Shown piece by piece: positions 20,124 to 51,798 of a DNA stretch of 64,000 bases. The notes beneath the pieces are model-generated. The model was not told where the DNA came from, did not search any database, and worked only from the letters and a program-made list of their open reading frames with translations. The first letter of the stretch is position 1. Each line of letters starts with the position of its first letter. Where the stretch lies: the sequence record PP993145.1; one strand, 5' to 3'. Made by a program: the position numbers and the translations under genes. This DNA is from Escherichia phage phiP4.

Positions 20124-20647
20124 TATAAGAACCTTGCGAATCCTGATTTTGTTTCAGTCTTGACTTGTGTCTTTTCTTGAGGATTCTGTAATTTGTCTTT
20201 CTGCTTTTGAACCCACACTTTTTGCTTATTAGCAGAAAATAAGGGAGGTTCTTTTGTGTAAACCTTATGTAATAATTGGTGATGGTGTACACAAAGGGTA
20301 ACAGTGTCTTCTACTAGCTCATGCCTATATCGATCATAGAATGCCGTCCTATTTGAGAGGACTGTTTCTTCGTCAGTGAAATCCAATTGGAGTTCTTTAG
20401 CAAATTTTTTAACTAGTAGAGACACCGTATGGTAATGATGAAGTTCTAATTCTTCAGCACAACCGCAGATAGCACATTGAGAGTCTTTTTTATATTGACT
20501 TTTTATTCCGTCTCTCATAAGGGATATAGCATCGCGTTTATATTTTACATTGCTTGCCATAGTGTTCTCCTCAACTGTATGAATATAGTATACATAATCG
20601 TATCGAATTTGTAAAGGGGATTTTAAAATGCAGGAATGGGATACCAA
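20123..20647 (-). CDS. HNH endonuclease-like protein, 174 aa
   Basis: Cys-x2-Cys and HH motifs (CAICGCAEELELHHYH); sits between terminase and portal. Confidence 0.5.
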   Translation of the reverse strand: MVSHSCILKSPLQIRYDYVYYIHTVEENTMASNVKYKRDAISLMRDGIKSQYKKDSQCAICGCAEELELHHYHTVSLLVKKFAKELQLDFTDEETVLSNRTAFYDRYRHELVEDTVTLCVHHHQLLHKVYTKEPPLFSANKQKVWVQKQKDKLQNPQEKTQVKTETKSGFARFL

Positions 20648-20674
20648 CTGAGTAGTATCCCATCCTATACTTAT

Positions 20675-21991
20675 TTATTTACCACGGGAAATAGAGTAAA
20701 TTCCATAGCGCAGCGCATCACAAAGGTGAGAGTTAGCATCATGACGTGGTTTTTCACGTGATAATTTTTCTTCACCTTCTTGGAAATCCCACTTATAGTT
20801 CTGCAATGCATGAATTAATGAGGAACATGAAGCGTCTACAATAATCTTACCCTGCTGGAATAGCGCTTGCAAGCATGCTAGGCCATCTAGGACAGATTTC
20901 TTAGCGGGAGCAGAGGCAATTTCATGTTCATAAGCTAAGTCCTGACGGAACTGAGCTGCTGCAGAGTCAACGAAGATACGATCTACATTATAACGATCTA
21001 TACAGTGCTGAATATACGCAGCATGCTGAGCTGTGGTTTTCTCAGCCTGCTGGTACTCTTCTAATACATAGTAAGTATCTGTATCATAGTGATACTTGAT
21101 AGTAAGAACTGCTGTAGGATCACGATAACCAACGTCAATGCCAAGCAACGTTTCGAATGCTTCATCATCTTTAAAGAAGTGACGCATACCTTTAAGGTCT
21201 TTAACATGATCAATAGCATTAAAGGTATCAAAGATCTGACCTTCGAATACAGAGAAGTCAGCCTCGTATTCTTGGCGGAAGTAGTTTTTACTAACAGTAC
21301 GACGTGCCTCCTCAATATCATTCAGGTCAGCACGTGGATTATCACGATATGTACCATGAATAGATACCCAGTTAGGCAACGTATCATCAAACCCATAGGC
21401 ATAAAATTCTTTAAACCAGTTACCACCACGAGGAGTAGAGATAAACAGAGCCTTAGAATTAGGTTTATCTAGGGTAGGACGCAACTGAACTCTAAAGGCA
21501 TCACCACCTACATCGGAAATTGCCGCCTCGTCAAAGATGATAAAGTCATATGAACGTCCAACCGCGGAGTCGGCCTGCGCCGCGGAAGCTAGTTTAAACA
21601 GCGAGCCGTTTGCCAGCTCAATCTCTTTATCTTTAGCATTCTCACGTTCGGTTTGCAATCCATACTTCTTAATAAGACCACGAATCTGAGACCATCCGAT
21701 GTTGGCTAGTGAATAGTTAGGAGCAACTACTAGTACTTTTACATTAGGTTCCAGCAATTTTAGGAACCCAAGCGTATATGCTATGAAGGATTTACCTACA
21801 CGGCGTGATACACACGCCGTTACAAAACGATGTCTAGGATCTTCTAGCGCATTGATAATTGCTATTTGAGGACCATTAGGTGTAATACCTTCTTGTGCTA
21901 GTATTCCCGAAACAGGTAGACGAAAGAAACGTTTATCTATTCCGAAATCTATAACATCTACTGTATTAACGTAGGGTCTTGATACTTCCAT
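20675..21991 (-). CDS. terminase large subunit, 438 aa
   Basis: Walker A-like RRVGKS, C-terminal nuclease-like region, position upstream of portal. Confidence 0.8.
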   Translation of the reverse strand: MEVSRPYVNTVDVIDFGIDKRFFRLPVSGILAQEGITPNGPQIAIINALEDPRHRFVTACVSRRVGKSFIAYTLGFLKLLEPNVKVLVVAPNYSLANIGWSQIRGLIKKYGLQTERENAKDKEIELANGSLFKLASAAQADSAVGRSYDFIIFDEAAISDVGGDAFRVQLRPTLDKPNSKALFISTPRGGNWFKEFYAYGFDDTLPNWVSIHGTYRDNPRADLNDIEEARRTVSKNYFRQEYEADFSVFEGQIFDTFNAIDHVKDLKGMRHFFKDDEAFETLLGIDVGYRDPTAVLTIKYHYDTDTYYVLEEYQQAEKTTAQHAAYIQHCIDRYNVDRIFVDSAAAQFRQDLAYEHEIASAPAKKSVLDGLACLQALFQQGKIIVDASCSSLIHALQNYKWDFQEGEEKLSREKPRHDANSHLCDALRYGIYSISRGK

Positions 21992-22473
21992 TACTTCTTA
22001 CCTCCAGTAGCTAGGGAAGTAATTAAGTCCATGTAGTTTTGATCCCCAGCTCCAGCAATAATATTATTCTGGATATTGGTCTGATTAGCAGGAGCACGGA
22101 CGGCAGCTTTAGCTTTTTCTAGTTCCACCATCATTTTCATCTCTTCCATCTTCATTTTATGTGCCTTCCAGAGAATATCCATAATATCCTGGTCAGAACC
22201 CATGCCAGTTTCTTCCAATTCCTCTAGCTTACGTTTAATAACTTCATCTAGAACACCGAACAAACGATCTCTATTACGGAAACCACTTTCCATAAAAATA
22301 TCGTTTAAGTAGTTCTTAACCTCACTACGATTCATAATATCTCGGAAAGCAATTTCGGACATTCCAAGACTACGTGCGGCAGAAGGCACATCACTGCCAC
22401 ACTGTAAATAAGCTTCAATTACATCCATCCCTTCAGGGGACATAAGATCTGGTACTAATACATCATTTGCCAT
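21991..22473 (-). CDS. terminase small subunit (putative), 160 aa
   Basis: HTH-like N-terminus, start overlaps stop of large terminase gene region. Confidence 0.45.
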
Positions 22474-22483
22474 ATTTCCTCCT

Positions 22484-24271
22484 TTAGGTAAGGCGTTGAA
22501 CTGTTACTCGTAGTCTCGGTAAGAAAACTGCAGCGGATTCATTTGCATGTATAACTACACCTAACTCAGCGTTACCGTTACCCAAATTTTTAATAGTATA
22601 AATAAATCCACTTCTAGTGAATGTTAAATCATCAGGTCGACTAGCCCACTGCTGTGTATAGCTATAAGAAGCTGTAGTATGGAAGGGCACCAACTGATTG
22701 GGTGGTAAAGTTAATATTTGATGGAATACCCCGTCACCACCTGTATAACTTTGTTGTCTTCTACCTTGCACCTGCCACGCAGTACCACCATATGTTCGTA
22801 TAGGACCTCCTGCTGTATTAAGATTTCCGGCAACTACTTCAGTAGTTAGGATTACTGTAGAGTTTGCATTAGGTAATCCAAGACCTACTGTAGATAGGGC
22901 TACATACTTATTCCCTGTACCTGGATAAGAGGGGTTTATGTCATCACCTATGTAAGTACTAGCTACGTTATTTGGTAGTAATCGTAAAGGTACTGAAGAA
23001 GGTCCCCAAACAACTCCATGCTCATTACCTATAGTATTATTATTGGAATTAACATACCATTGTTTACCAGCAGAGAATTTGTAAATACTTATCTGAGACT
23101 TAGAACCTCCATAATTTACAGGCGACCATAAAGAACCTTTGTTAGAGCCTACAATTTCACATCTTGCTGTAGTATCTCCAAAGACTCCGGTATAAGCAAC
23201 GTTATTACCAATATATTCCATATCAGGTCTAGATGATAAGTTACCAAAAGCATTCTGATTAATGAATTTGTAACTGGTGTTTGGAAGACTAACACCTTTT
23301 ATAGTAAAGTTAGAAGGACTTATACGAATATCAGACCCAGTAAAAGGATTACTAGCAACGCTCATACTACCATTAGAGTATCTAAGATTCAGCACATACC
23401 AAATAACTTTGGTCGGAGTAATATTATAGCTATCTTGAACATACTTCTTCTTTGCTGCCTGTGATGCTAAATTAGATGTCGAGCCCCTACATACATAAAC
23501 CTTATTCGGATAGGTCGAAGAATTATATAGTACACTCACATTACTTGGCGTAGTGCCTTTTTTACCCGCGTATCCACGTATATTGGAGTTACAAACATAA
23601 AACCAATTATGACCCCTTTTCCCAGCCCCTATAGGGGCTTGCCAATTAGGGTGCCAGAAGTCAACATTACCACTATTTATAGATACTTTAGACGCCCCAG
23701 CTGGAAATCCTGCTAAAGTCCATGCTCTACCGATAGCTTCACCGGCATATGCCCCTCCAGGTCTGTATAAGTTAAATCCAGAAGCCTGTGATATAGTACC
23801 GCCAGTACCCTGTCTAGCTATTGACTCTTCATGGCCCAGACTAGAGTTATAAGTATAAGTACCATGTGCTAAACTATTACCAGATGCAAAAGCTGACGTA
23901 AGACCTAATTCAGCACCAGCCCTACCAATAGGGGGGTCTTCAAAAAATGCAAGAAATTGTCCAACCTGGGATTGAGTACCATTAAGAAAAGCTCTATGTG
24001 TACCATTTATCTCAACAGCGGTTAGTATAACCCTACCAGGATCATTACTCTTTAGGTTAGCTATTACAGAAGGCATCTGACATACAAAAAACCCATTTCC
24101 AGCGCTACTTAATGCACTTTCATAAGTACTCTCAACTAGAACAAAGGGCATATCAGAGTGAAATATAGTATTGGCATTAGGAGTTTTGTGAGCATTAATA
24201 TCCCCACCATTCACTTTGTTTAGTGATAATACAGTTTTACCATCACTATATTTTCCAGCGAAAAAACCCAT
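22484..24271 (-). CDS. receptor-binding tail protein (pb5/Oad-like), 595 aa
   Basis: N-terminus MGFFAGK...LSL...GGD.N.H..P...TIFHSDM resembles T5 pb5; divergently paired with llp-like gene. Confidence 0.65.
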
Positions 24272-24356
24272 ATAATCTCCTATTATAAAAATGTATTTGC
24301 TTTCATCTCTCTATTTTGCTATAATATATTCATAAATTAGAAATGGAGAGATAAAT

Positions 24357-24623
24357 ATGAAAAAGTTTGTGATTGCACTAGTTGCCACAGTTATGTTATC
24401 TGGTTGTGCACCTGCTCCCAAACCATTTTGTACGGGATTTGTAAAATCTTTTGGTGGTGCGGGAGAAGAACATTACGGTCTCAAGGTTCAAAAAGTTCGT
24501 ATTAAGGGAGATCGCTTTCCAGTAGTACAGCTCCGTACTAAGTTTGGATGGTGGGATCTCAGTCAGTTTGACCTTAAATATGGTGATTGTAAATTTAAAC
24601 TAGAACAATCTAATTACTTGTAA
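24357..24623 (+). CDS. llp: Llp-like lipoprotein (lytic conversion / receptor-blocking), 88 aa
   Basis: Signal peptide with lipobox LSGC; divergent from RBP gene as in T5. Confidence 0.55.
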   Translation: MKKFVIALVATVMLSGCAPAPKPFCTGFVKSFGGAGEEHYGLKVQKVRIKGDRFPVVQLRTKFGWWDLSQFDLKYGDCKFKLEQSNYL

Positions 24624-25017
24624 TTAGTATAAAACAAAAAGACATCCAAGTAAACTAAATTTTTTATTTCTTGGATGGTGTACTGGCAGAAACCACTATG
24701 TAAGAAAATTAGAAGTCCTTCTAGAAAGTCACGAGTATGGTTGGTTATGCACAAATTATAAAATATTTATTGGAGCACGAAATATATGTCAAACAAAAGA
24801 AAGAACAGACGCGGAGAAGTGTACAATAGCTGGATAAATAGTTTTGGGTTCGGAACTATCTTATTCCTAGTCTTCGTAGGTTTTTGGTTAGCAGCTATGG
24901 TGGGGTGGATTTAATGGAATGGGTAATTATTGCACTGCTGGGGATTGTGATTATTGGGCAGTGTATTCTAGATAATCACTTAGCTAGAATTGAAACCTTA
25001 CTATCGGAGAAACGTAA

Positions 25018-25212
25018 ATGATGGAAGCGGCAGTTACACTAATAGTAATATTAGTCTGGGTAATCCTCATTGTCTCTCGTATCGTGTATCTCCGCCTAAA
25101 AACTCTAGAGGCTCAGGTAAAACAACAACAAGTTATTATAGAAAAGCTAGTACTACTGCAACGTTGTGATAGCACCCGTATTCTGCAAATTGAGAGGGAA
25201 TTAGATGTTTAG
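25018..25212 (+). CDS. small membrane protein, 64 aa
   Basis: Single hydrophobic helix; at left edge of repeat block. Confidence 0.3.
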   Translation: MMEAAVTLIVILVWVILIVSRIVYLRLKTLEAQVKQQQVIIEKLVLLQRCDSTRILQIERELDV

Positions 25213-25450
25213 TATTATAATTGCTTTTATTATCGGGATACTCGCGGGGGTTTTCGGGACGACTGCGGCAATCAATAAGCACCGGAAATATATTGCGGGA
25301 GTGTCGCGGGAGATTGCGGAAAGGGAGCGGAAGTTTGACGAGAAACGTGCGGAGTTTGAGAGGGAATGGTCGGATGGATCTCGGGCGTCGCGGAAGAGAT
25401 TCCGTGAGTTCAGACCAGAACACAGGTTTGATGACCCTTCTATGCGCTAA
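25205..25450 (+). CDS. small membrane protein, 81 aa
   Basis: N-terminal TM helix then charged tail. Confidence 0.3.
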   Translation: MFSIIIAFIIGILAGVFGTTAAINKHRKYIAGVSREIAERERKFDEKRAEFEREWSDGSRASRKRFREFRPEHRFDDPSMR

Positions 25451-25601
25451 TTTGACTTTTGCCAAATTTCATAAGATTACACATGGAGGTGTGTCCAGTG
25501 GCCTCCCGGATGAGAATGAGTCTCATTACCGCCTGGTACTTAGCAAGCTAATAGTCACGATATGCAATGATAACATACCGTGACTATTTCAATTTTAATT
25601 A

Positions 25602-26336
25602 TTACGCGACTTTTAATTTCTCAATATATTGTTGCGGGCTGCAACTATATTCTGCGCGTTCTTCCTCGGTCATACTTTCCCAACATAATTTCAATCGGTC
25701 CGCTAGGAACTGATAATCATTATCATCATCAAGCGATTCATCAATAAAGGTTCCGCCTATCAATGCCACGCCGATTGATAGAATATCATTAACGGCTTGC
25801 GCATCCAGCGTTTTAAATCCGTATGATGCCGCCGCCGCCAATACTCCTTTATGGTCATCAATCATTGTAAAATCAGCGTTCGGGTATAATTGTTTGAATA
25901 GCTCGAAATAATAACTTTTATATACTGCATCCTTGCTGTGGTATATTTCGCTAACCTTATCAGCCGTAAAATATTTGTGAAGTGTATCGCGGGAAAATAC
26001 ACGGATATTGGTATCCCCACGCCCGCGCAATCCTTGTTTGCGTAGGAAGTAATAATCTGACTTGCTCATCAGGCGAGCGGTGCAAATAATGTTTAAAGTA
26101 TTTGCGTCATTCATGCATTGGCGCATATATTCCACCAAAGGCAATAAAGTATCTTGCATTATTAAATGATGCTTGCAAGCCTCGTTTTTGTATTTATTTA
26201 AATCTAAATTCCCGTCGCTATCAAAGCAAGGCGCTACACGATGGAATGAATTAACGATAGTGCCATCAAGATCCCAAATCATGACGCGGGAAATATGCGG
26301 AAAATTACGGGTAATATTCGTTTTAACTTGATTCAT
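25602..26336 (-). CDS. dmp: 5'-deoxyribonucleotidase (HAD family), pre-early
   Basis: HAD motif I WDLDGTIVNS; start chosen at internal Met with GGAG RBS (244 aa); ORF-track start is 26378. Confidence 0.65.
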   Translation of the reverse strand: MNQVKTNITRNFPHISRVMIWDLDGTIVNSFHRVAPCFDSDGNLDLNKYKNEACKHHLIMQDTLLPLVEYMRQCMNDANTLNIICTARLMSKSDYYFLRKQGLRGRGDTNIRVFSRDTLHKYFTADKVSEIYHSKDAVYKSYYFELFKQLYPNADFTMIDDHKGVLAAAASYGFKTLDAQAVNDILSIGVALIGGTFIDESLDDDNDYQFLADRLKLCWESMTEEERAEYSCSPQQYIEKLKVA

Positions 26337-26416
26337 TTTGTTACGTTCTCCAATAAAGGGATCTAGTTTATCCAGCATTGCCCGCTATTTATAAGCGGGC
26401 AATAATAAATCAACTA

Positions 26417-26809
26417 TTAAAGGCCATAAGCCAACGCATCAGCGATAAAACTAATATCCTCGCCAGATACACCGGAACGAATACCAGCACAAGTATATAC
26501 TTTCGCGCTAGATAGCTGATCATCAAAGCAAGCTGGGCAAGGCGCGACAACTGCAAACGCAAGGCCAGCTTTCACGGCGTCGATGATAATCGTTTCCTGC
26601 TTCACCGTATCAACATAAACGCCCGCGGCCTTGATGTGACTACTTGCGCGGCCTTGCGTATAGGCGAAAGTCGTGATCTGTAGCGCCTCATTAAACTCAA
26701 TTAAGTCATCAACAACGTGACCGGCCTCAACGTGATACCGCTCACCATTTGAATAAACCAGAACGATTGAGGACTGAGCGCGATCGAATGGAATATTTTG
26801 CTTTTTCAT
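26417..26809 (-). CDS. cytidine/deoxycytidylate deaminase-like zinc-binding protein, 130 aa
   Basis: H-x-E (YHVEAG) and PCxxC (APCPAC) motifs typical of CDA-fold deaminases. Confidence 0.45.
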   Translation of the reverse strand: MKKQNIPFDRAQSSIVLVYSNGERYHVEAGHVVDDLIEFNEALQITTFAYTQGRASSHIKAAGVYVDTVKQETIIIDAVKAGLAFAVVAPCPACFDDQLSSAKVYTCAGIRSGVSGEDISFIADALAYGL

Positions 26810-26881
26810 ATTTATAAAACTCCAATTAATTTAATAAACTTTTATAGCGGCTATATTTCAAGCCGCTGGGGAATAATTTAA

Positions 26882-28546
26882 TTACGCGAAAAATTTGCCG
26901 TTTTTAAAGTCAATCAAAGTGCGCTGCCCGTTCGCATAGGTAATTAAATGCGTTTGCGTCCAACTTGACGCGCCAACGTTGTAACCCATATCCAGACTAC
27001 CAGCAACGCCAGCGGTATAAACGCCGCCGTAAATGCTGGCGGTGTGGGTGTGCCCCGTGTTTAATTTGCCCAATTTCTTAAACTGCTTCGGATTACCACG
27101 GCTGCCGTTAATGCCGTTGTGACCGTGTACGCCGCATTCAATGCCTGCAATTTTAAATGATTGGTCAGTGGTCAGGAAAATTGCGTTAAACTCGCAACCT
27201 GCGACGTCACGCAGCGCATAATCCAGCACGTTGAAAGTATCGTCATGATTACCGATTGCCGCGTAAATCGCAGCATTAAGGCGGTGATATAGTTCCGCAT
27301 TGGCTGGATCGTCTTTAATGTTAGCATTGCGATCATCAAGCCAACGGGATAACGCCAAATCGTGGTTTGATTCGACAATGATCGTTTGACTAAAATCGCG
27401 CTCCATTGACTCCAGCACGCGCCCGGTATCGATCAGATCATCCAGAACTTTATCACGTCCGGCTGCATACTGTTTCGCTAGGAATACACCAGAGGCGCGA
27501 TTATGATGATTGCGCGATGTAAAATCATGCACGTCATGCACAAACTGATATTTAGGCTTGAGAATATCAAGCAAGCTGTTTTCGCCAGCCCATGACGCTG
27601 CGGCGCACTCCTCATCTAATTTCTCGGCGTGTACGTCGCCATATTGCAAGCCTAAAACATGCCCCGACGTTTCAAAACATCCGGCGGGAGTGGCGCAAAT
27701 ATTCAAATCGTAAAACATGCCGCTTTCGTCCATCGTTTCAAGCTGGCGAACAAAAAATTCCCCGTCCTCGTCGAACTCAACAATCAGCGCACCGTAATTA
27801 TGCAGCGCCTCCGCTTTTTGCCCTGCTTTTTGCTGAATGTAGTTTTTGAGCGTTGCCGTTCCGGTTGAGTACATGCGGCGTACTACTTCACCTTTGAGAG
27901 CTGGCACGCTTTCAGCGGTGATTTTAGCGTGACCAATTGCCAGACCTTCCAGATTAAGCGCGGTTGCAGTTTCAGCAAATCCAGATAGCGGATAATCTGC
28001 CGTTGGCAAAACATTAATTTCAGCCATGAAAGCAAAACGGCGATTGTTTAAAAACACGTTTTTGCTGCAAATATATTTATCAAACGCGGAATCATATTTT
28101 ACACCGTCTGCGCCTTCTCCGTTCTGAAAACCGTTTTTATTATAAATATACTTAGAAACAAGCAAATCAGCGCCGATAAATTTAGCATATTGTTCAAGCG
28201 AGGCTAAAAAGTTTTTATGCGGGAAAGTATTGTTCTGAATTGATGTAATAATAAAGCGTTTGCCCTGTTTTACTTCCCACTGTTCCACCGTGCTGGAAAT
28301 AATTCCAGCCGCCTCGGGGCGCTCGTCGTTTTTAATGGCTTTTGCTACTTTCGCCGCTTTTGGTTTTGCTGGTTTATTTGCTTCCAGCCAATCACAAATC
28401 GCGGTCGAGTGTTTCGTTGTATCGTAGACCGCTTTTGATATATCGTCGCAGACTTCCAGCTTAGTAGCGCGCAGACGTTTACCGTAGAAATTAAAGTCAG
28501 CGGCCAGCTTCAGGATAACGGTTTGTTTTTCTGCGGAAATAATCAT
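26882..28546 (-). CDS. A1: A1 protein (calcineurin-like metallophosphoesterase), pre-early
   Basis: GDVHAE and GNHD metallophosphatase motifs; start set at internal Met with GGAG RBS (ORF track extends to 28636). Confidence 0.6.
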   Translation of the reverse strand: MIISAEKQTVILKLAADFNFYGKRLRATKLEVCDDISKAVYDTTKHSTAICDWLEANKPAKPKAAKVAKAIKNDERPEAAGIISSTVEQWEVKQGKRFIITSIQNNTFPHKNFLASLEQYAKFIGADLLVSKYIYNKNGFQNGEGADGVKYDSAFDKYICSKNVFLNNRRFAFMAEINVLPTADYPLSGFAETATALNLEGLAIGHAKITAESVPALKGEVVRRMYSTGTATLKNYIQQKAGQKAEALHNYGALIVEFDEDGEFFVRQLETMDESGMFYDLNICATPAGCFETSGHVLGLQYGDVHAEKLDEECAAASWAGENSLLDILKPKYQFVHDVHDFTSRNHHNRASGVFLAKQYAAGRDKVLDDLIDTGRVLESMERDFSQTIIVESNHDLALSRWLDDRNANIKDDPANAELYHRLNAAIYAAIGNHDDTFNVLDYALRDVAGCEFNAIFLTTDQSFKIAGIECGVHGHNGINGSRGNPKQFKKLGKLNTGHTHTASIYGGVYTAGVAGSLDMGYNVGASSWTQTHLITYANGQRTLIDFKNGKFFA

Positions 28547-28635
28547 AATAATAAACTCCATTAAAGGGATAAGGTTAATAACGGCAATATTGCCAAATAT
28601 AACGCCTCCAATAATAGGCGTTATAATTTGCAACA

Positions 28636-28881
28636 TTAATTTAAAGGCATCAGGCTAGAACTAACACCACAAACAACGGCGGCAATAAAACAAATCAGGC
28701 CCAAACGCTTCGCTAACTTAGATTTGCGTTTAAAATAATACGAATCTAAATCATTTTGAAAATATGCGAACAATAACGAGGCCGCCATAATAAATAAGCC
28801 TAGAATCAACGATTCAGTAGGGTAAAAGATCATTTTAATAACTCCAGTTAAAGGGAAATTATAGTGGGGAATAATCCCCAC
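28636..28881 (-). CDS. small membrane protein, 81 aa
   Basis: Two predicted TM helices. Confidence 0.4.
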   Translation of the reverse strand: MGIIPHYNFPLTGVIKMIFYPTESLILGLFIMAASLLFAYFQNDLDSYYFKRKSKLAKRLGLICFIAAVVCGVSSSLMPLN

Positions 28882-28890
28882 TATTTAAAT

Positions 28891-29298
28891 TTATTCACCT
28901 GCGGCCTGTTTTACTTCATCGGCAACGCCTAACAACTGCGCCACGGCGTCCAGCGTTTCCAGCTTCGCGCTTTCAAGGCTTGCCAGATCATCGGCGTCCT
29001 TGATAATGCCGGAATCAATAGCGTGTTTTGCAATCACTCGCACGTAATGAGCTTTGCGGATTGAACTACCGCCGCCAACTTTGCGCGGCTTATCGCTTTT
29101 TTGATATGCTTTCGCGCTGGTCAATTTTGAGCGAACTGACACGGGAGAAGCCGCGCCAACTGCTTTCGCAATCTCTTTCAGGCCGTCGCTATTTGCGAAA
29201 TCTAAACCGTTTTCATTGATTAACTGCTGATACATGGTAACAGCTTTTTGGGTGTTTTCTTCGTTCCAAGAAAATTTTGCGGTTTTTGCGTTAGTCAT
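28891..29298 (-). CDS. A2: A2-like pre-early DNA-binding protein, 135 aa
   Basis: Size and position upstream of A1 as in T5; basic C-terminal region. Confidence 0.45.
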   Translation of the reverse strand: MTNAKTAKFSWNEENTQKAVTMYQQLINENGLDFANSDGLKEIAKAVGAASPVSVRSKLTSAKAYQKSDKPRKVGGGSSIRKAHYVRVIAKHAIDSGIIKDADDLASLESAKLETLDAVAQLLGVADEVKQAAGE

Positions 29299-29398
29299 GG
29301 TAAAAACTCCAATTAATTTAATTTAAGGGATTAAATGATTAACTAATGTTAATCGTTATATGCCCCGAACTACTGGGGCATATAAAGTTAACACTATA

Positions 29399-29650
29399 TT
29401 ATAAAACGGCTTCCCATTTTTCGTTACGTTGAACAACCTTTACAACGTCGCCGGATTTAACGCGAACGCTAAAAACGGTTTTTCCGTTGTTACTGCGCTC
29501 ATTTTCAGCGTATACCGCGTCGATTGTATCAAACGGCATAAGCGCCGCGCCTTTAATACGTTCGGCTTTTCCGGTTAATTCATCCGTTTTAGTAACGAAA
29601 GGAATAAAAACAGATTGACCAATTTTCGGCGCGGTAATAACGTTTTGCAT
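29399..29650 (-). CDS. hypothetical protein, 83 aa
   Basis: ORF with upstream RBS. Confidence 0.4.
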   Translation of the reverse strand: MQNVITAPKIGQSVFIPFVTKTDELTGKAERIKGAALMPFDTIDAVYAENERSNNGKTVFSVRVKSGDVVKVVQRNEKWEAVL

Positions 29651-29883
29651 AATATAAACTCCAGTTTATTTGATGGATTGTTCCGCATTATCTGCTAGAA
29701 AATACTAGCAGATAATAAGAAGAAATCCGCTCGCCATTATAAAATCAATTTAAGGAACTCCACGCGGGCCGCTATATCCCAGTTAGGGGGCGGGATGCAT
29801 TATGGTAAGCACCGACCGTCAAATTGTATCAAGTTATCGCTCTTATCGAACTGGGTACATCTTAAAGCCTATCGGCTAGGTTG

Positions 29884-30087
29884 TCAAACTATTTTTTGCA
29901 GTTTTTTATGATTTTCCTTCAGGTCGATCATAATATTTCGCCAGATCATTTCTAGTCCTTGCTGGCGGCCTTTCTTGTACTGCTCAAATCGATATTTTAC
30001 CGATCTTTGCGCTACTGTCAATAAATTTTTTGTTTTGCTATCCAGTGCCTTGCTAGGTTTACCAGTGATCAATAAAGTTTGTTTCAT
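29884..30087 (-). CDS. hypothetical basic protein, 67 aa, bracketed by 17-bp inverted repeats
   Basis: ORF flanked by tcttaaagcctatcggc (29855-29871) and its reverse complement (30118-30134). Confidence 0.3.
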   Translation of the reverse strand: MKQTLLITGKPSKALDSKTKNLLTVAQRSVKYRFEQYKKGRQQGLEMIWRNIMIDLKENHKKLQKIV

Positions 30088-30780
30088 ATCGTCGATTCCT
30101 TATAATGAATAAGTTTACCGCCGATAGGCTTTAAGATATACCCAATTTTTAAAGAGCGCGGCGGTAAACTCCCCGCCGTGTAGTTCGTCATTGCCGCCCT
30201 ACGAGATAAATAATAACAAACAACGAAAAAGGCGCAACCTTATATTTGTAAAGAAATGTAAAGACAAACGCCACCGGACACCGTGCGGCGACCTGGGCGC
30301 GGCGCATTAAAATTAAAAGAAACGGGCGCGCGAATACCACAAAACACAGCAGATAGGCAAGTAATTTTTTCATTTATATTTGCTTTGCCCTACTTGACAA
30401 AATCTAAAAAGCTCGTGGCAGCGATAAACGGCTTATCCCCTTATGATGGGATGGCTAAAAACTTTATTGCGTTCTGGGGCGTTTTAGGCCGCCTATTTTC
30501 GACTTAACAAATCATTAACAAACGCAAAATTGAAAAATAGTTGGAAAAGGTCTTGACTTTTAAAAATCAAGATCAAATGACTTATTTTATAAAATAAATT
30601 AATTGACTTTTATTTGTTAGTATGCATCGGAAAGATAGCAGACTATTAATCACTAGAAGGATGATCATGCTGGTGGATTGTAACGGCCTGAATTATTAGC
30701 AGACTATTAATCACGGAAAAACTCATTAGCCAACTAACTATTTCATGATATATAATATACTTATAAATTAATGAGAAATA

Positions 30781-30863
30781 ATAACTATAAGAAATCATCA
30801 CCATTATAATAATAACTATAAGAAATCATCACCATTATAATAATAACTATAAGAAACTATCGG
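30781..30863. repeat. 31-bp tandem direct repeat, about 2.7 copies
   Basis: ataactataagaaatcatcaccattataata repeated head-to-tail. Confidence 0.8.
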
Positions 30864-30890
30864 CATAAGTGAGAACCACTATCATTTAAG

Positions 30891-30998
30891 TTATCCACAA
30901 TGTTATCCACAGCACAAAATAATTTGACACGATAGGCGGCGATATAAGGGCTTATCCACAGACTTATCCACAGGTTATCCTACTGTATAAATATACAG
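30891..30998. promoter_or_regulatory. DnaA-box cluster (4-5 TTATCCACA-like boxes) including left 40-bp inverted repeat arm (30959-30998)
   Basis: ttatccaca, gttatccacag, cttatccacag x2, ggttatcct read directly. Confidence 0.7.
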
Positions 30999-31263
30999 GG
31001 TAAAAAGGCAGTGTTAACGACTGCAATCAATTTTAAGCGGCCTAAAACGCTTTCTAACGAGCTAAACGCTGTGGGGTAATATTAAAGTAAAGACCCAACG
31101 CGGTGCCCTGGTGGCTTCGCCGTGTTTTGCTCTTTACCGTACCGCTGCGCGGTTATCATAAAAATAGGCGTTAGGCAAGGAAAATAAAAAAGTAAAATAA
31201 TCTTTGCCTATGCTAGAAAATTACCCTTATCATTTACTCACCGATTAACGAGAGGGCCAACAA

Positions 31264-32256
31264 ATGAGGCTATATAAACCAGATAACGCAACCGTCTTAA
31301 AAGGTGCGCTGCGTAACCTGCTGGATGGTAGCAGAACAACCAGCATCCGGCATTTTGTTTTCAATATTGAAACTATTCATCAAAACTTTTTTGATGAATA
31401 TGACGCTTATAATATGAATAGTTTTCTACCGTTATATAAACAAGGGGCAACGCTTGTTTTGTATAATCAGGATTATCAATTGCTCACTAGTCGGGGGCCG
31501 GATACTGATTTCATAATCGTAAAAGGCAACACAGTAAAAGCCTATGATACTGGGGCGGGCTTAGAAGTTTTTTCAATAGAAAACTATGAGGCTAATGATA
31601 ATGATCTTTATGACGTAGAAAATTTTCTTGATTCATTTTGGCGTTATTTATCAGTTGGCTGGAATCGGTCGGATTCTGATGGGTATCGTTTTGCGGCTAT
31701 AATGGCCTTCGATGATAACGGTAATTTTTTGCTACCGTCGGAACTATGCCCGTATGTTTATAATGATCTGATACAGGAGGCCGGTTTTACTTTCTGGAAA
31801 GATGAGGATCAGATTATTAACAGTATAGAAAAACATGCTGTAAATTCTAACACTCAAAGCGTTATCACTCAAACTACTGAAAATAAAGGAAAAAACACTA
31901 TGACCAAGATCGCTAACATCGTTGCCGCCAATAAGTCTGCCGTTGTAAACGCTGCAAAACTGGAAGCGGGTAAAATTGCACTAACTCAAATCACGAAAGT
32001 AGCGGCTAAAAAAGCACCGTTCATGATCAAAGGTTATATCGATACGCCGATTGGTCGCGTAGTAATCGCTAACCTGCTGAGTGTAGCGGTTGACCAGTAC
32101 GCCCCGAGTAACCAGAAAGCGAAAGCGGTAGCGGGGGCGGCTATGGAAGCGGCAATGTTGGAAATGGTGCAAAGTTTTAACATCGCTGAGATGATCGATG
32201 AAATGGTAAAAGGTATCGATATTTCTACTTTTACCAATAACACCGAAAACGAGTAA
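31264..32256 (+). CDS. hypothetical protein, 330 aa
   Basis: First gene of plus-strand cassette between the inverted repeats; no recognisable motif. Confidence 0.45.
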   Translation: MRLYKPDNATVLKGALRNLLDGSRTTSIRHFVFNIETIHQNFFDEYDAYNMNSFLPLYKQGATLVLYNQDYQLLTSRGPDTDFIIVKGNTVKAYDTGAGLEVFSIENYEANDNDLYDVENFLDSFWRYLSVGWNRSDSDGYRFAAIMAFDDNGNFLLPSELCPYVYNDLIQEAGFTFWKDEDQIINSIEKHAVNSNTQSVITQTTENKGKNTMTKIANIVAANKSAVVNAAKLEAGKIALTQITKVAAKKAPFMIKGYIDTPIGRVVIANLLSVAVDQYAPSNQKAKAVAGAAMEAAMLEMVQSFNIAEMIDEMVKGIDISTFTNNTENE

Positions 32257-32377
32257 TAACTAGCCCATTGTAAAGTTTTGTAAAGGCCGCCTTTTATGGT
32301 GGCCTTTTTTGTTATAATGCCTTTACACCGTTTGAGGACGGTTGAAAATTTTCCCAAAAAATTTTGGAGGCTTAAAA

Positions 32378-32607
32378 TGGTTGCTTTTTCTTCTTCTGAC
32401 GCTCTTTTCACTGGAAAAGGCTGGGTATCAAATCGCTGGATTATTCAGGAAATGGTGCAAGAGTACGGCATTGCTAAAACTTATACTACCATTCAGGCGC
32501 TTTATGATAATGATCAAATCGATCAGCAAACGGCGGGCTTTTTACTGGATACCCTGAAGGCGGAACACTGTACCAAAAAACAAGCCGCTAAAATTGTTTT
32601 AATGTAA
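32378..32607 (+). CDS. hypothetical protein, 76 aa
   Basis: Start set at Met preceded by GGAGG RBS (ORF-track start 32296). Confidence 0.4.
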
Positions 32608-32656
32608 TTAATAACGGGGCGAAAGTATCGCCCCACTAACTAGGGGAGTATCACAA

Positions 32657-32839
32657 ATGATTATTTTTCGAGCTTTTTTAGCGGGTATCTTGGGAGCTAT
32701 TTTGACCCTTTTCGCCACCGCTTACGGTATTCAGGATTCCTATTGCGGTTTGGTAAACACAAAACCTATGGTTACTATAGGCGCTGGTATCGCTGTATTT
32801 TCTTATCTGCTGGGCTGCATGAATAGTAAAGGAGAATAA
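32657..32839 (+). CDS. small membrane protein, 60 aa
   Basis: Two hydrophobic segments, RBS present. Confidence 0.4.
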   Translation: MIIFRAFLAGILGAILTLFATAYGIQDSYCGLVNTKPMVTIGAGIAVFSYLLGCMNSKGE

Positions 32840-32841
32840 AA

Positions 32842-33054
32842 ATGATCCGCAACGTTTCTCTTGCACGTTCGAAAGGTTTTAAGCTGGTGGACGCTAACAC
32901 GTTCGAGCGTCCAGATTGCAAGATCGAATATGTAGCACGTAATAAAAATGCCTTTCGTGTTACCGAGAAAAAATTTGATAAGCGCGGCAACGTGATCCTT
33001 GAAACGGTTAGGCACTTTGCCACCTTTTACGCTGCATTTCGTGGGGTACTATGA
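32842..33054 (+). CDS. hypothetical protein, 70 aa
   Basis: RBS AAGGAG upstream. Confidence 0.4.
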   Translation: MIRNVSLARSKGFKLVDANTFERPDCKIEYVARNKNAFRVTEKKFDKRGNVILETVRHFATFYAAFRGVL

Positions 33055-33290
33055 AAAGCGTTATTGTTGTTATCCTTGCAATGGCTGGCGGTTTTATCGC
33101 CACCTTATTTAAGAATGATCCCACTTCGTTGGGTATCTTTATGCTTTTATCGGGCTATCTGATCGGGAGGTTGTCAAATGATAGCGCAAATTAAAACGGC
33201 TTTTCGTTTTTGGGGCGTCCTGCCTTCAATTGGTTTTATTCTGATAATCATTAGTCAGCTAATGATTATCGTTGGCGTTATCTGGGAGCT

Positions 33291-33641
33291 ATGCAAATGA
33301 TCATTTACGAGGGCAATCGCTTTGTTGCTAATTGCCGCCCGGCATTGTTAGCAAACTATTTAAACCAGCTTTCACCAGCTTATAAGGGCGTTATTAATAT
33401 TTACGAGGGCAAGGCGCATTATAAAATCAATGCGGTCGTTGCCCGTGAACTAGCGTTTCAATTTTTAACCTTTGCATCTTGCGACGTTCAGGTTATGGGT
33501 GAGGCGTTAATTGCAGAAAATGAAGACGATTTTATTAATATTTTCCGTAAGGTATGCACCGAGCGCCTGATAATCAAAGGCGCATATATTCAATCCACGG
33601 CTGATAGTATTGAAACAGCGTTTCGAAAGGTGGCGCAATGA
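33291..33641 (+). CDS. hypothetical protein, 116 aa
   Basis: ORF; last sizeable gene of plus-strand cassette. Confidence 0.4.
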   Translation: MQMIIYEGNRFVANCRPALLANYLNQLSPAYKGVINIYEGKAHYKINAVVARELAFQFLTFASCDVQVMGEALIAENEDDFINIFRKVCTERLIIKGAYIQSTADSIETAFRKVAQ

Positions 33642-33793
33642 AACGATGGTTTAATCACTGGTACAAGCGGTTTTTAGTACGCCGTCGCAAGTCTAGGCAT
33701 CAAGATGAGTGGCGGGAGTGGGCAAAGCGTAACGGTTGCCCACTAATATAATAATCACGGGGCGCAACTATCAGGGAGTGCCCCCAATTTTCA

Positions 33794-34370
33794 AATGATA
33801 ATCATTCTCATTTGACCGCGCCCGCGATGGTTAGCCTGCTAATGGTTCGGGTGTTACGTGTCGCCTTGTGTGATCGTTAGCTCGCTAACTAATTTTCAAG
33901 CCTCCTCCAATTTTGCCCTTGTTTTAGTATCCCCACCAAAATTAAACGCGTTAGAATGCGTTTGAGAGCGTTTTAACGCTATATTAGAATTATTCGCTGC
34001 GTAGGAATACTGTATATTTATCCAGTAGGATAAGCTGTGGATAAGTCTGTTAATAACGCCTCAAAATGGCTAGGGTTTTGTCAAGTCAAATCGTGCTGTT
34101 AATAAGTCTGTGGATAACTTAAATAACAGTGTTTCTCACTTCCGTTCTTAAATGAGAATCATTATCATTTGTATTTCACTATCTAACTAATAATCATTCC
34201 ACTATCTAACTAATAATCATTCCACTTTCTAAATGAGAATCATTCCGCTTTTTAAATGAGAATCATTTCACTTTTTAAATGAGATTGATTCTCATTTCAC
34301 TTTCTAAATGCGAATTATTATCATTCTCATTCCGCTTTTTAAATGAGAATGATTCTTATTATCATTCGTA
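33794..34370. promoter_or_regulatory. array of at least 7 Fur-box-like AT-rich palindromes (AAATGAGAATCATT family)
   Basis: 33794-33814 aaatgataatcattctcattt matches 16/19 of GATAATGATAATCATTATC; 34148-34166 matches 15/19; further copies 34231-34366. Confidence 0.45.
34010..34049. repeat. right 40-bp inverted repeat arm with DnaA boxes (partner of 30959-30998)
   Basis: Reverse complement equals left arm with 3 mismatches; extra tgtggataac box at 34103-34112. Confidence 0.75.
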
Positions 34371-34374
34371 TTTA

Positions 34375-34396
34375 GCGCAGAGCAATTGCTCTGCGC
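34375..34396. repeat. perfect 22-bp palindrome gcgcagagcaattgctctgcgc
   Basis: Read directly. Confidence 0.85.
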
Positions 34397-34400
34397 TTTT

Positions 34401-35000
34401 GTGCAAATCCGACATTGCTCCACGGGTGTTACGTGCGGGCGTGTATGTGCGAATCCGACAATTTTTGGTAGTGTGCAAATCCGACCCGAAAAATTTTTAT
34501 AGTGTGCAAATCCGACAATGAATTTTCCTAAAAACTCCAGCAATCCGATGCTGCGCATCAATCCTGTGGAATTAGCTAGAGTATGTGCAAATCCGACATG
34601 GGTTTATTTGTGCGAATCCGACAAGATTTTTGTGACTTCGATTGGAGGGTGTGTGATTGTGTGGGTTTGGGGAGAAGTTGAGAGAGCGAGAGAAAATAAG
34701 AGGAGAAGCTAGAGGGGCAGCAGTGGTGGCGTGCAACGCCTGATTTGCTGCGTTTTTGGGGAGAGTTGAAAAGATTTGGGTTAATTTGAGATTAGTGGAG
34801 ATAAAGTAAAATTTTATTAGCAAAATGGGGCAAAATAGCTTGACAAGTGAAAATTTCTGTGGCTCTAAAAACTCAGGCAATCACGGGCCTTCGGCCCGAA
34901 ATAATGCTGCCATTTTCAGGAGATTATATGTTCCTAAAAACTTAGGCAATTGTGCAAATCCGACCATAAATTTCTAGAAACACAATGTGCAAATCCGACA
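34401..35000. repeat. eight dispersed copies of GTGC(A/G)AATCCGAC(A/C) motif plus AACCGCC and ttcctaaaaac repeats; injection-stop-signal-like noncoding region
   Basis: Copies at 34401, 34447, 34473, 34503, 34585, 34610, 34953, 34987. Confidence 0.75.
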
Positions 35001-35473
35001 GTAATTTCTGGAAATGTGTTTTCAAAAAATGTCTCCTAGAAATAACCGCCCTCCCCATAACCGCCCTGTATTAAACCGCCTAGTATATGTTCCTAGAAAC
35101 TTGGGAGAACCGCCCACTAGAAGCGTGAGATCTCGTGAGTATTTCGTGAGAACTCTGGAGTTTCTAGGAAAGTGTTGTGCCATCCTAGCAGATGAGCGGC
35201 AACCGGTGTATCATCTTGAATGTAAATTATGTGGTCAAAAGTTTTACCTTTAATTTAAGTATAAGATCCCCCAAGATTGGAAGAGATGCTCCACCCCTGG
35301 GATACGAATTGCGTGAGATGGTACAAAACTTCTTAAGATTTCCCTAGTCCTTCGACAAGCTACGGGGGAAATAGAAGTTTCCCATCCACCATCCGTATCC
35401 GGGTGGATCTCTTTATTCTATGTTATTTCATAGAGTTATTATAACATGCAGAAATCATAACGTCAAGTAGAGT

Positions 35474-36364
35474 TTATTCATCGAACATGAGATTTCCTTT
35501 CATCCCCATCTCCGCATACTCCATGAGTTCTTTGATGGATCTCACGGGGTAATCTACTTTACTAAAGTTATCATAGATCTTACATGAACTCTCATACAAC
35601 TCGTTAGGTATCTGCAATTTGTTATCTGTTAGCTTCTCATAACGTGCAGAAGAATTTGTACCGTCAAACAGAACTGCGATAACTGCGGCGATTTGTTTAG
35701 TAAGATCATCTGCTCCTAGAATTATTCTATTAATAGCAATCGTTACTTCATGCTTAGGTTTAGCAGGTGGAAGGATAGGTTTGAGATCCTTAGGTAAAGG
35801 TTCTGTTCCTAGGAATCCTTCTTTTGTGCGGAACCAATAATTATCTAGATCAGATATCGTCTTAGACTTATTCCAAATAGTGAAGCAGGGTTTATTTCCT
35901 TCACGATCTCTGTATTCACGAATTGGAAGGTAATGATCAGGGAATGAATTGAGTGCATCATGCATCGGTGAGCCTGTCTTTTTGAATGACAAACCATACA
36001 ACTCATTATAATTCATAACTTCATCTTCGTAAACATGGAAATCTTTATATGCTGGAAGATTAAACCATTCCTGAAGTGAATGAACTGCAAAACGTTGTGC
36101 CCAAGCATGCATCACTAGAACTCTGTATTCTTTTACTTCATCTTTTGGAGAAGTACCTTTAGCTGTTCTAGCTGAACGAATACAGAACATCTCAACAACA
36201 CGTTTCTCATTTAAAGAGAGTTCAGAATAACAACGTTCATGGCAACCTTCTAGCATTTCTAGAAGTTCACGTAGTTTCTCTACATCGACCGGTGGAAAAG
36301 GTCTTTCTTCAACTGCGAATTTACCAGTTACACCTTTTGGTTTTCTATTACTATAAAATCCCAT
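35474..36364 (-). CDS. hypothetical early protein, 296 aa
   Basis: First ORF after repeat block. Confidence 0.5.
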   Translation of the reverse strand: MGFYSNRKPKGVTGKFAVEERPFPPVDVEKLRELLEMLEGCHERCYSELSLNEKRVVEMFCIRSARTAKGTSPKDEVKEYRVLVMHAWAQRFAVHSLQEWFNLPAYKDFHVYEDEVMNYNELYGLSFKKTGSPMHDALNSFPDHYLPIREYRDREGNKPCFTIWNKSKTISDLDNYWFRTKEGFLGTEPLPKDLKPILPPAKPKHEVTIAINRIILGADDLTKQIAAVIAVLFDGTNSSARYEKLTDNKLQIPNELYESSCKIYDNFSKVDYPVRSIKELMEYAEMGMKGNLMFDE

Positions 36365-39930: not shown

Positions 39931-40200
39931 TTATTTCTTACCTTTCAGTTGCTTAACTTCACGCTCAAAAGATGCTGCACGACGTTCGGCAGTTGCCTGA
40001 TGTTCTTTCGCAAAACGTGCTTCCTGTTTTGCTAGGTTGAACGCCATAGCATTCTTATTCAGGGAATCATACATCTTTTTCATTGCCGGGATAGACATCT
40101 TCATGAGCTGGCCTTCAAAACCCTGCATGTCGAGGAGAATTGCCAGAACGTTAGCCATTTCATTTTTAGTCATGTTTTCCATTAGAATTTCCTCTCTCAT
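39931..40200 (-). CDS. hypothetical protein, 89 aa
   Basis: ORF behind promoter at 40215-40243. Confidence 0.45.
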   Translation of the reverse strand: MREEILMENMTKNEMANVLAILLDMQGFEGQLMKMSIPAMKKMYDSLNKNAMAFNLAKQEARFAKEHQATAERRAASFEREVKQLKGKK

Positions 40201-40214
40201 TAACTTATGAACTT

Positions 40215-40243
40215 ATTATACAGAATTTTAAGGCTTAAAGCAA
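40215..40243 (-). promoter_or_regulatory. sigma70 early promoter (TTGCTT-17-TATAAT)
   Basis: Minus-strand -35 at 40243-40238, -10 at 40220-40215. Confidence 0.6.
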
Positions 40244-40260
40244 CTGAATTTTTTAATTAC

Positions 40261-44938: not shown

Positions 44939-45051
44939 TTGTAACCTCCTCTAACCAGTACCATTATACTAATTTTGGAGGAAAATTACAATGTGTTTTT
45001 AAAGATCACTTCTGGAGCATAAAATTTTGTCGTTGTCAAGAAGAATTTTAG

Positions 45052-45085
45052 ATAAAAGAAAAGCCAGGGTCGTTAAACCCTGGCT
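45052..45085 (-). terminator. intrinsic terminator (agccaggg/ccctggct hairpin)
   Basis: Hairpin plus U-run downstream of 45095 gene. Confidence 0.55.
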
Positions 45086-45094
45086 TAAAACTAC

Positions 45095-45694: not shown

Positions 45695-45706
45695 AGCGAT
45701 CCTTGA

Positions 45707-51797: not shown

Positions 51798-51798
51798 A

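What the first reader, a model, noticed from the sequence alone, without database searches (positions are those of the whole stretch)
24650..35450. Collapsed terminal repeat: pre-early genes sit between the last late gene and the first early gene
llp/pb5 are the last late genes before the T5 right terminal repeat, and dmp/A1/A2 are the first genes in the left repeat. Here they are adjacent in one contig, separated by about 10.6 kb that is noticeably GC-richer than its flanks. This implies a circularly permuted or collapsed assembly. The physical genome ends, nick sites and second repeat copy cannot be seen from sequence alone.
Basis: partly seen in the sequence, partly recalled or inferred. 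Interest (0 to 1): 0.45.

Follow-up and report, generated by a model that had tools for sequence, protein, structure and literature searches.

The report
Collapsed terminal repeat, T5-like phage
This is the ordinary ~9.4-kb terminal repeat of a T5-like phage, appearing once in mid-contig because the assembler merged the two identical end copies and opened the sequence at an arbitrary point; this is a well-known assembly convention, not new biology.

Summary
The window comes from a Tequintavirus (T5-like phage; nearest relatives are Salmonella phages at 91-97% nucleotide identity). The gene calls in the finding are correct. TerL, pb5 and llp lie on the left. dmp, A1 and A2 and the other pre-early genes lie in the middle. 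The first early gene lies on the right.

Alignment to relatives with mapped ends shows that the window reads straight from right-arm unique DNA, through one repeat copy, into left-arm unique DNA. That is the layout expected when two identical terminal repeats are collapsed.

The repeat itself is smaller than the flagged interval. By homology it runs about 25,492-34,865 (9,374 bp), not 24,650-35,450. Four small T5.159-162 homologues sit between llp and the left terminus. About 600 bp of non-coding repeats lie beyond the right boundary.

The GC excess is real but small (41.2% against 38.7%) and is shared by T5, BF23, MM-1 and K16.

In fact both ends, the injection-stop region with its paired DnaA boxes, and two major nick sites can all be placed by homology.

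At least 30 GenBank records show the same collapsed layout, and the literature already describes it. Interest is low.

One side lead came up: Fur-box-like palindromes are strongly concentrated in the repeat.

The parts
20675..21991 (-). Terminase large subunit (late gene, right arm)
   Evidence: 99.8% identical to T5.155; PHROG terminase large subunit
22484..24271 (-). Receptor-binding tail protein pb5 (divergent type)
   Evidence: phrog_4815, E=1e-267; 31% identical to T5 pb5 over its full length; PF26860 listed for the identical protein
24357..24623 (+). llp-type receptor-blocking lipoprotein
   Evidence: LPAM_1 lipobox signal; phrog_1119 Cor superinfection exclusion protein; no tblastn hit to T5 llp; this stretch is 88% identical at DNA level to BF23 (H87)
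24786..25447 (+). Four small ORFs homologous to T5.159-T5.162; these, not llp, are the last right-arm genes before the repeat
   Evidence: tblastn, 75-94% identity to T5.159-162
25492..34865 (.). Single collapsed copy of the long direct terminal repeat (first-step-transfer DNA), 9,374 bp, with both boundaries inferred by homology
   Evidence: Left end: T5 position 1 maps to 25492, MM-1 and SIA3lw to 25493, Kenya phages to 25503-25512. Right end: the annotated repeat ends of T5 (10219), BF23 (9743, by PhageTerm), MM-1 (10407) and SIA3lw all map to 34865|34866; K15, K37 and K38 end 18-29 nt inside that point
25605..26336 (-). dmp, 5'-deoxynucleotidase; first gene inside the left terminus
   Evidence: 94% identical to T5 dmp; phrog_415
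26885..28546 (-). A1 (the ORF extends to 28636); needed for host DNA degradation and second-step transfer
   Evidence: 94% identical to T5 A1; phrog_1745 DNA transfer protein; function from bioRxiv 10.64898/2026.04.02.716235
28894..29298 (-). A2, DNA-binding protein needed for second-step transfer
   Evidence: 98.5% identical to T5 A2; phrog_1725
29887..30087 (-). T5.008 (hdi) homologue; a strong sigma-70-like promoter lies inside it, at the position of T5 promoter P-H22
   Evidence: 88% identical; TTGACA-16-TAAAAT at 30021->29994; T5 annotation; hdi name
30867..30998 (.). Left arm of the 130-nt inverted repeat (IRC-spacer-IRD) carrying two pairs of consensus DnaA boxes
   Evidence: Inverted repeat found; TTWTNCACA at 30891, 30903, 30952 and 30964; described for T5-like phages in 10.1101/866236
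31264..33641 (+). Rightward pre-early operon: homologues of T5.011 (DUF7566) and T5.012-T5.015
   Evidence: 78-97% identity; PF24450 E=2e-112; terminator at 32282-32307
34010..34141 (.). Right arm of the inverted repeat (IRD'-spacer-IRC'), the core of the candidate injection stop signal, with paired DnaA/DnaA* boxes
   Evidence: D9; I1; TGTGGATAA at 34036 and 34109
34142..34366 (.). Array of AAATGAGAATCATT palindromes and 23-nt direct repeats (Fur-box-like)
   Evidence: D1-D3, I1-I19
34396..34397 (-). Position homologous to the T5 major nick at 9748^9749 (7.9% site); CTGCGC|T is conserved
   Evidence: T5 annotation; alignment; sequence
34401..34999 (+). Eight GTGCRAATCCGAC direct repeats (DRD): six inside the repeat, two beyond its right end
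   Evidence: DRD described
35474..36364 (-). First gene of the left-arm unique (early) region, T5.018-like
   Evidence: 43% identical to T5.018; phrog_8583

Best explanation
The window is part of a sequence assembly of a T5-like phage (Tequintavirus). The virion DNA of such phages is linear with two identical direct terminal repeats of about 9-10 kb. The assembler merged the two copies, so the sequence closes on itself and was opened at an arbitrary point. The single repeat copy (about 25,492-34,865) therefore sits between the right-arm late genes (TerL, pb5, llp, T5.159-162 homologues) and the left-arm early genes.

How the repeat works, inferred from T5 and BF23 and not tested here:
- The left copy is the first-step-transfer DNA. 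It enters the cell first, and host RNA polymerase transcribes two diverging pre-early operons: dmp-A1-A2-hdi leftward and the 011-015 homologues rightward.
- Entry pauses at the non-coding injection-stop region (about 33.7-34.9 kb), which holds inverted repeats, paired DnaA boxes and direct repeats.
- A1 and A2 then allow the rest of the genome to enter.
- Terminase cuts concatemers at fixed sites corresponding to 25,492 and 34,865, and the repeat is duplicated during packaging.
For: - Identity: 567 phage records match, the best being Tequintavirus at 91-97% identity. TerL is 99.8%, A1 94% and A2 98.5% identical to T5.
- Layout: both ends of K16 and of T5 align colinearly across both repeat junctions. 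No second copy is present in the window.
- Boundaries: four independently annotated genomes (T5, BF23 by PhageTerm, MM-1, SIA3lw) agree on one homologous right boundary, and the window is identical to T5 there (TTTCTGTGGCTC|TAAAAACTCAGG). Left termini agree within 1 nt. K15, K37 and K38 fall within 11-29 nt of these points.
- Architecture: the inverted repeats, the DnaA-box pairs spaced 3 bp apart, the DRD repeats and the nick-site sequence are all present, as described for 25 T5-like phages.
- Precedent: all 30 listed GenBank records carry the whole 16-kb query, spanning both junctions, in one place. Most are 102-112 kb long with the match in mid-record. Davison states that many GenBank T5-like records have dmp/A1/A2 next to late genes because assemblers mishandle the large terminal repeats. 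The PhageTerm paper says assemblers place the first base of such phages at random and that the repeat shows twice the coverage.
Against: - No reads are available, so double coverage and read-start peaks at the inferred ends cannot be shown.
- The window is only part of a contig, so another repeat copy could exist outside it.
- The source contig could not be found.
- Two relatives annotate other right boundaries: K16 at a point equivalent to 34,124 and chee24 at about 34,660. The right end therefore carries some uncertainty.
Confidence: 0.9

Rival explanations
1. The layout reflects a real molecule rather than an assembler collapse: a concatemer junction or circular replicative form sequenced from infected cells or a metagenome. 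In such a molecule one repeat copy naturally lies between right-arm and left-arm DNA.
For: The junction structure is identical to what recombination between the terminal repeats would produce. Circle and concatemer formation through the repeats is discussed for T5. The only other place found for the exact pb5 protein is a 2.1-kb contig from a public sequencing run, so the sample type is unknown.
Against: This cannot be told apart from a collapse by sequence alone. Dozens of records from purified phage show the same layout, so an assembler collapse is the simpler cause. The biological conclusion is the same either way: the phage has a T5-type repeat.
Confidence: 0.06
2. The repeat in this phage is shorter, 25,512-34,124 (8.6 kb), as annotated in its closest relative Kenya-K16. 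This would leave most of the palindrome, nick and DRD region outside the repeat.
For: K16 is the nearest relative across the junction (95-97% identity). Its annotated repeat ends map exactly to 25,512 and 34,124.
Against: K16 itself carries the T5-type boundary sequence 693 nt further right. Its sister phages K15, K37 and K38 end within 18-29 nt of the T5-type boundary. T5, BF23 (PhageTerm), MM-1 and SIA3lw all agree on 34,865. The K16 end falls inside an internal inverted repeat, which is a plausible place for a mapping artefact.
Confidence: 0.07
3. The phage has lost its fixed terminal repeats and packages by the headful mechanism, so the genome really is circularly permuted.
For: Nothing beyond the fact that the contig is permuted.
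Against: TerL is 99.8% identical to T5's. Both cut-site contexts are conserved, the right one being identical to T5. The whole first-step-transfer architecture is intact.
Confidence: 0.01
4. A chimeric misassembly joined unrelated contigs at repeats.
For: The region is rich in short repeats.
Against: Both junctions are colinear, base for base, with real junctions in genomes that carry both repeat copies. No extra or missing sequence is seen at either boundary.
Confidence: 0.01

Closest known systems
Bacteriophage T5 terminal repeats (AY543070: left 1-10219, right 111532-121750), i.e. the first-step-transfer region
   Same: Same gene order (dmp, 002, A1, 005, A2, 007, hdi, 009 leftward; 011-015 rightward). 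Same terminus sequences, the same inverted repeats with DnaA boxes, the same DRD repeats and the same nick-site sequence.
   Different: The repeat is 9,374 bp here against 10,219 bp in T5. The window lacks T5.003, the homing endonuclease hegG, T5.016 and T5.017. Only one copy is present, and it is internal to the contig. The adjacent pb5/llp module is of a different type (31% identity for pb5; no hit for llp).
Phage BF23 (OR083247), with 9,743-bp repeats determined by PhageTerm
   Same: Its repeat boundaries map to the same homologous points. The llp and pb5 5' region is 88% identical at DNA level (H87).
   Different: BF23 is deposited with both copies at its true ends. It carries an extra ORF (BF23_00011) that the window lacks.
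Collapsed and permuted GenBank records of T5-like phages (e.g. vB_SalS_ABTNLsp9 MW149275, SE11, SP33, GSP044)
   Same: Identical layout: one repeat copy in mid-record between llp and the early genes, in records of about 105-112 kb.
   Different: Nothing of substance; sequence identity is 88-94%.
Direct-terminal-repeat phages in general (T7 and T3 short repeats; SPO1 long repeats)
   Same: Fixed-site terminase cutting with repeat duplication. Assemblers collapse the repeat and choose an arbitrary first base.
   Different: The T5-type repeat is far longer than the T7/T3 repeats. In T5 it is also a functional unit, being injected first and encoding the pre-early genes.

Membership tests
T5-like (Tequintavirus) long direct terminal repeat / first-step-transfer region | dmp, A1 and A2 in this order just inside the left terminus | tested here: met
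   dmp 25605-26336, A1 26885-28546 and A2 28894-29298, all on the - strand and 94-98.5% identical to T5. Criterion taken.
T5-like (Tequintavirus) long direct terminal repeat / first-step-transfer region | Large untranslated region at the right end of the repeat holding IRD'-spacer-IRC', its inverted partner upstream, paired DnaA boxes 3 bp apart, and DRD repeats | tested here: met
   Inverted-repeat arms at 30867-30998 and 34010-34141. DnaA-box pairs at 30891/30903, 30952/30964, 34036(+34048) and (34097+)34109. Eight DRD copies. Description.
T5-like (Tequintavirus) long direct terminal repeat / first-step-transfer region | Conserved sequences at both terminase cut sites | tested here: met
   Left: GGTG|TGTCCAGTGG against T5 GGTG|TGTCCACTGC. 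Right: identical to T5 over TTGACAAGTGAAAATTTCTGTGGCTC|TAAAAACTCAGG.
T5-like (Tequintavirus) long direct terminal repeat / first-step-transfer region | Two identical copies at the physical ends of the virion DNA (2x read depth, read-start peaks) | not testable with these tools
   No reads available. Only one copy in the 64-kb window. Source contig not found.
T5-like (Tequintavirus) long direct terminal repeat / first-step-transfer region | Site-specific nicks in the minus strand at the consensus 5'-N-Pu-pGCGC-N | tested here: inconclusive
   The sequences at the two T5 major-nick positions are conserved (34396^34397 and 46277^46278, both CTCTGCGC|T on the + strand). Actual nicking cannot be seen in a sequence.
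T5-like (Tequintavirus) long direct terminal repeat / first-step-transfer region | T5-type terminase and late/early genome arms colinear with T5 | tested here: met
   TerL 99.8% identical. Tail, head and portal genes at 1.9-20 kb. T5 21000-24500 maps to 44940-47910. tRNA cluster at 51.5-63.6 kb.

The most novel reading that the evidence does not exclude
The palindromes of the repeat (AAATGAGAATCATTnTCATTT and relatives) may be real binding sites for the host iron regulator Fur. Sites lie in the injection-stop region, 20 nt from the left terminus, and inside the 3' end of dmp. Host iron status or Fur occupancy would then affect the pause or resumption of DNA entry, or pre-early transcription.

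What the evidence shows is only a specific, conserved sequence resemblance. Of 17 sites within 5 mismatches of the Fur consensus in 64 kb, 14 lie in the repeat. None of 1,000 shuffled consensus sequences and none of 1,000 palindromic controls reaches that number. The sites recur at the same places in T5, BF23, MM-1, chee24 and K16. They could equally be operators of a phage protein such as A2.
Probability: 0.1. Interest if true: 0.55.

Novelty: already known. Interest (0 to 1): 0.07.

Why it matters
The value is practical only.
- A record laid out like this understates the virion genome by about 9.4 kb.
- It starts at a meaningless coordinate.
- It places pre-early genes next to late genes, which misleads synteny and taxonomy comparisons.

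The fix is to re-open the sequence at about 25,492 and append a second copy of 25,492-34,865 at the right end, once reads confirm those ends. No open biological question is advanced by the finding itself.

Tried and rejected
- **Source contig.** I searched for an exact 54-mer from the left-terminus region in the viral, genome and metagenome collections. There were no matches.
- **Exact pb5 protein.** The look-up gave only a 2.1-kb contig from a public sequencing run, which says nothing about layout.
- **Promoter scan of 24.3-35.6 kb.** Counts were not above shuffles (37 against 31±5). Only individual sites that coincide with annotated T5 promoters are mentioned.
- **Rfam scan of the window.** It found only tRNAs, with none in the repeat region.
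- **K16's annotated boundaries.** I used them first, giving an 8.6-kb repeat. I then rejected the right one as an outlier after comparing eight other annotated relatives.
- **GC excess as a sign of foreign origin.** Rejected. It is small, gene-specific (A1, A2, 002) and shared across the lineage.
- **Tool note.** Loci fetched in one turn are stored together in one FASTA file, which at first looked like missing data.
Full report
**What the window is.** The 16 kb around the finding matches 567 phage records. The best are Tequintavirus (T5-like) phages of Salmonella and E. coli at 88-94% identity. The llp-dmp junction is 97% identical to Salmonella phage Kenya-K16. The window's + strand has the orientation of the T5 map.
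- The left 24 kb is the late structural module. It holds the straight-fibre protein, a central tail fibre J-like protein, the distal tail protein, the tape measure, the major tail protein, the major head protein, the head protease, the portal and TerL (99.8% identical to T5).
- T5 21000-24500 maps to window 44940-47910.
- 22 tRNA genes lie at 51.5-63.6 kb.
- The window therefore covers the T5 right arm, one repeat, and roughly the first 35-40 kb of the left arm.

**Checking the observation.**
- pb5 is 22484-24271(-).
- dmp is 25605-26336(-), 94% identical.
- A1 is 26885-28546(-), 94%.
- A2 is 28894-29298(-), 98.5%.
- The first early gene is 35474-36364(-), T5.018-like.
- llp, 24357-24623(+), is identified by its lipoprotein signal and by PHROG 1119.

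pb5 and llp are of a non-T5 type. pb5 is 31% identical to T5 pb5, and llp gives no hit to T5 llp. At DNA level the stretch holding llp and the start of pb5 resembles BF23 (88%).

The flagged interval has 41.2% GC against 38.7-38.8% on either side, close to the highest value for any interval of that size in the window. The excess is small. It sits mainly in A1, A2 and the T5.002 homologue (46-48% GC), and T5, BF23, MM-1 and K16 show the same pattern. It is a lineage trait, not a sign of foreign DNA.

**Where the repeat really is.** The flagged 24,650-35,450 is the space between llp and the first early gene, not the repeat.
- *Left boundary.* T5's first base aligns to window 25,492. The first bases of MM-1 and SIA3lw align to 25,493. 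The four Kenya phages annotate starts 11-20 nt further in.
- *Right boundary.* The annotated repeat ends of T5 (10,219), BF23 (9,743, determined with PhageTerm), MM-1 (10,407) and SIA3lw all fall at one homologous point...TTTCTGTGGCTC|TAAAAACTCAGG. The window carries this sequence, identical to T5, at 34,865|34,866.
- *Other relatives.* K15, K37 and K38 end 18-29 nt short of that point. K16 (693 nt short, equivalent to 34,124) and chee24 (about 200 nt short) are outliers, yet both carry the same boundary sequence further right.
- *Best estimate.* The repeat runs 25,492-34,865, or 9,374 bp.
- *What lies between the repeat and the flagged limits.* Homologues of T5.159-162 lie between llp and the left terminus (24,786-25,447). 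About 600 bp of non-coding DNA lies between the right boundary and the first early gene.

**Is it a collapsed repeat?** Yes.
- K16's right end (unique DNA plus right repeat) aligns as one block to window 18,839-32,259, and its last aligned block ends at the record's final base, window 34,124.
- K16's left end begins aligning at 25,512 and continues out of the repeat into the early region.
- T5's right-arm junction and the end of its left repeat are likewise both colinear with the window.
- The one copy in the window is therefore flanked on the left by what adjoins the right repeat in the virion, and on the right by what adjoins the left repeat.
- There is no second copy in the 64 kb.

This layout is common. 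All 30 listed records carry the whole 16-kb query in one place, and most are 102-112 kb long with the match in mid-record. Davison notes that many GenBank T5-like records have dmp/A1/A2 beside late genes because assemblers mishandle the large repeats. The PhageTerm paper says assemblers choose the first base of such phages at random and that the repeat shows double coverage.

**Anatomy and how it works.** The mechanism below is inferred from T5 and BF23 and was not tested here.
- The repeat holds two diverging pre-early operons. The leftward one carries dmp, the 002 homologue, A1, 005, A2, 007, hdi (T5.008) and 009. The rightward one carries homologues of 011 to 015.
- T5.003, hegG, T5.016 and T5.017 are absent.
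- Between the operons lies about 1 kb of non-coding DNA holding the left arm of a 130-nt inverted repeat (30,867-30,998) with two pairs of consensus DnaA boxes.
- The partner arm lies at 34,010-34,141, with paired DnaA/DnaA* boxes 3 bp apart.
- To the right come 23-nt periodic palindromes (34,142-34,366), then the sequence of the T5 7.9% nick (34,396^34397, CTGCGC|T).
- Eight GTGCRAATCCGAC repeats follow (34,401-34,999), and two of them lie beyond the repeat end.
- This matches, element for element, the 'repeat regions 2 and 3' and the candidate injection stop signal described for 25 T5-like phages.
- In T5 the left copy enters first and is transcribed by the host polymerase. [quoted passage not shown]

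**The claim that ends and nicks cannot be seen.** This is partly wrong. Homology places both ends to within a few nucleotides, or at worst 30. It also places two of T5's major nick sites, the second at 46,277^46,278. Proof that the molecule ends or is nicked there needs reads or wet-lab work.

**Rivals.**
- A real concatemer or circular intermediate would look identical and cannot be excluded without reads. It changes nothing about the biology.
- The K16-type shorter repeat is unlikely, because K16's sister phages and four other genomes disagree with it.
- Loss of fixed ends is very unlikely, given a TerL nearly identical to T5's and conserved cut sites.
- A chimera is excluded by base-level colinearity at both junctions.

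**Side observation.** The palindromes of the injection-stop region resemble the E. coli Fur box.
- At 3 or fewer mismatches to GATAATGATAATCATTATC there are 4 hits against 0.04 expected.
- At 5 or fewer mismatches, 14 of 17 distinct sites in the window lie in the repeat.
- None of 1,000 shuffled consensus sequences and none of 1,000 palindromic controls reaches 14.
- The sites recur at equivalent places in T5, BF23, MM-1, chee24 and K16, and none occurs in 7.5 kb of T5 right-arm unique DNA.
- The Davison preprint discusses DnaA boxes but never mentions Fur. A full-text search found nothing relevant.
- This is a resemblance only. The sites may be operators for a phage protein.

**Verdict.** The phenomenon is a documented assembly convention for a textbook genome architecture. 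Novelty: already known. Interest: low.

Noticed in passing
window 25512-25530, 25706-25730, 33237-33276, 33791-33815, 34148-34172, 34310-34363: Fur-box-like palindromes are concentrated in the terminal repeat. Of 17 sites within 5 mismatches of the Fur consensus, 14 lie in the repeat, and none of 2,000 control motifs reaches that number. The sites are conserved at the same places in T5, BF23, MM-1, chee24 and K16. I found no mention of this in the literature searched.
   Followed up: partly
window 22484-24623: The receptor-binding module is not of the T5 type. pb5 is 31% identical to T5 pb5, and llp gives no hit to T5 llp. The DNA across llp and the start of pb5 is 88% identical to BF23, which uses BtuB, so this phage may use a receptor other than FhuA.
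   Followed up: partly
window ~30200-31260 and ~47145-47158: The homing endonuclease genes hegG (T5.010) and hegF (T5.046) are absent at the positions where T5 carries them. T5.003, T5.016 and T5.017 are also missing.
   Followed up: partly
window 46277-46278 (- strand): The sequence at T5's second major nick (22336^22337) is conserved. Both nick sites in the window read CTCTGCGC|T on the + strand.
   Followed up: partly
window 35438-35466 (- strand): A near-consensus sigma-70-type promoter (TTGACG, 17 nt, TG-TATAAT; 11 of 12 matches) lies just 3' of the first early gene. It points leftward into the non-coding repeat region, where no conserved ORF follows.
   Followed up: no
window 40187-40266, 49976-50055, 52301-52380, 55425-55504, 55932-56011, 58818-58897: A family of six ~80-nt AT-rich direct repeats in the early region. 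Read on the - strand, they look like the strong T5 early promoters followed by a ribosome-binding site (D1).
   Followed up: no
window 51549-63636 (- strand): A cluster of 22 tRNA genes predicted by ARAGORN. Rfam adds one more tRNA hit at 59871-59945. This is typical of T5-like phages.
   Followed up: no
window 932-1141: Three overlapping copies of a 105-nt direct repeat (spacings of 42 and 63 nt) inside ORF 880-1296(-), which has no PHROG match.
   Followed up: no
L009 (Kenya-K16) 9371 vs 10064; L011 (chee24) 9968 vs 10175: The annotated repeat boundaries in these two GenBank records disagree with the conserved T5-type cut site that both records contain. K16's repeat is probably annotated about 690 nt too short at its right side.
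   Followed up: partly
window 61001-63000: A local GC rise to 46-47% within the tRNA/early region. Not examined.
   Followed up: no
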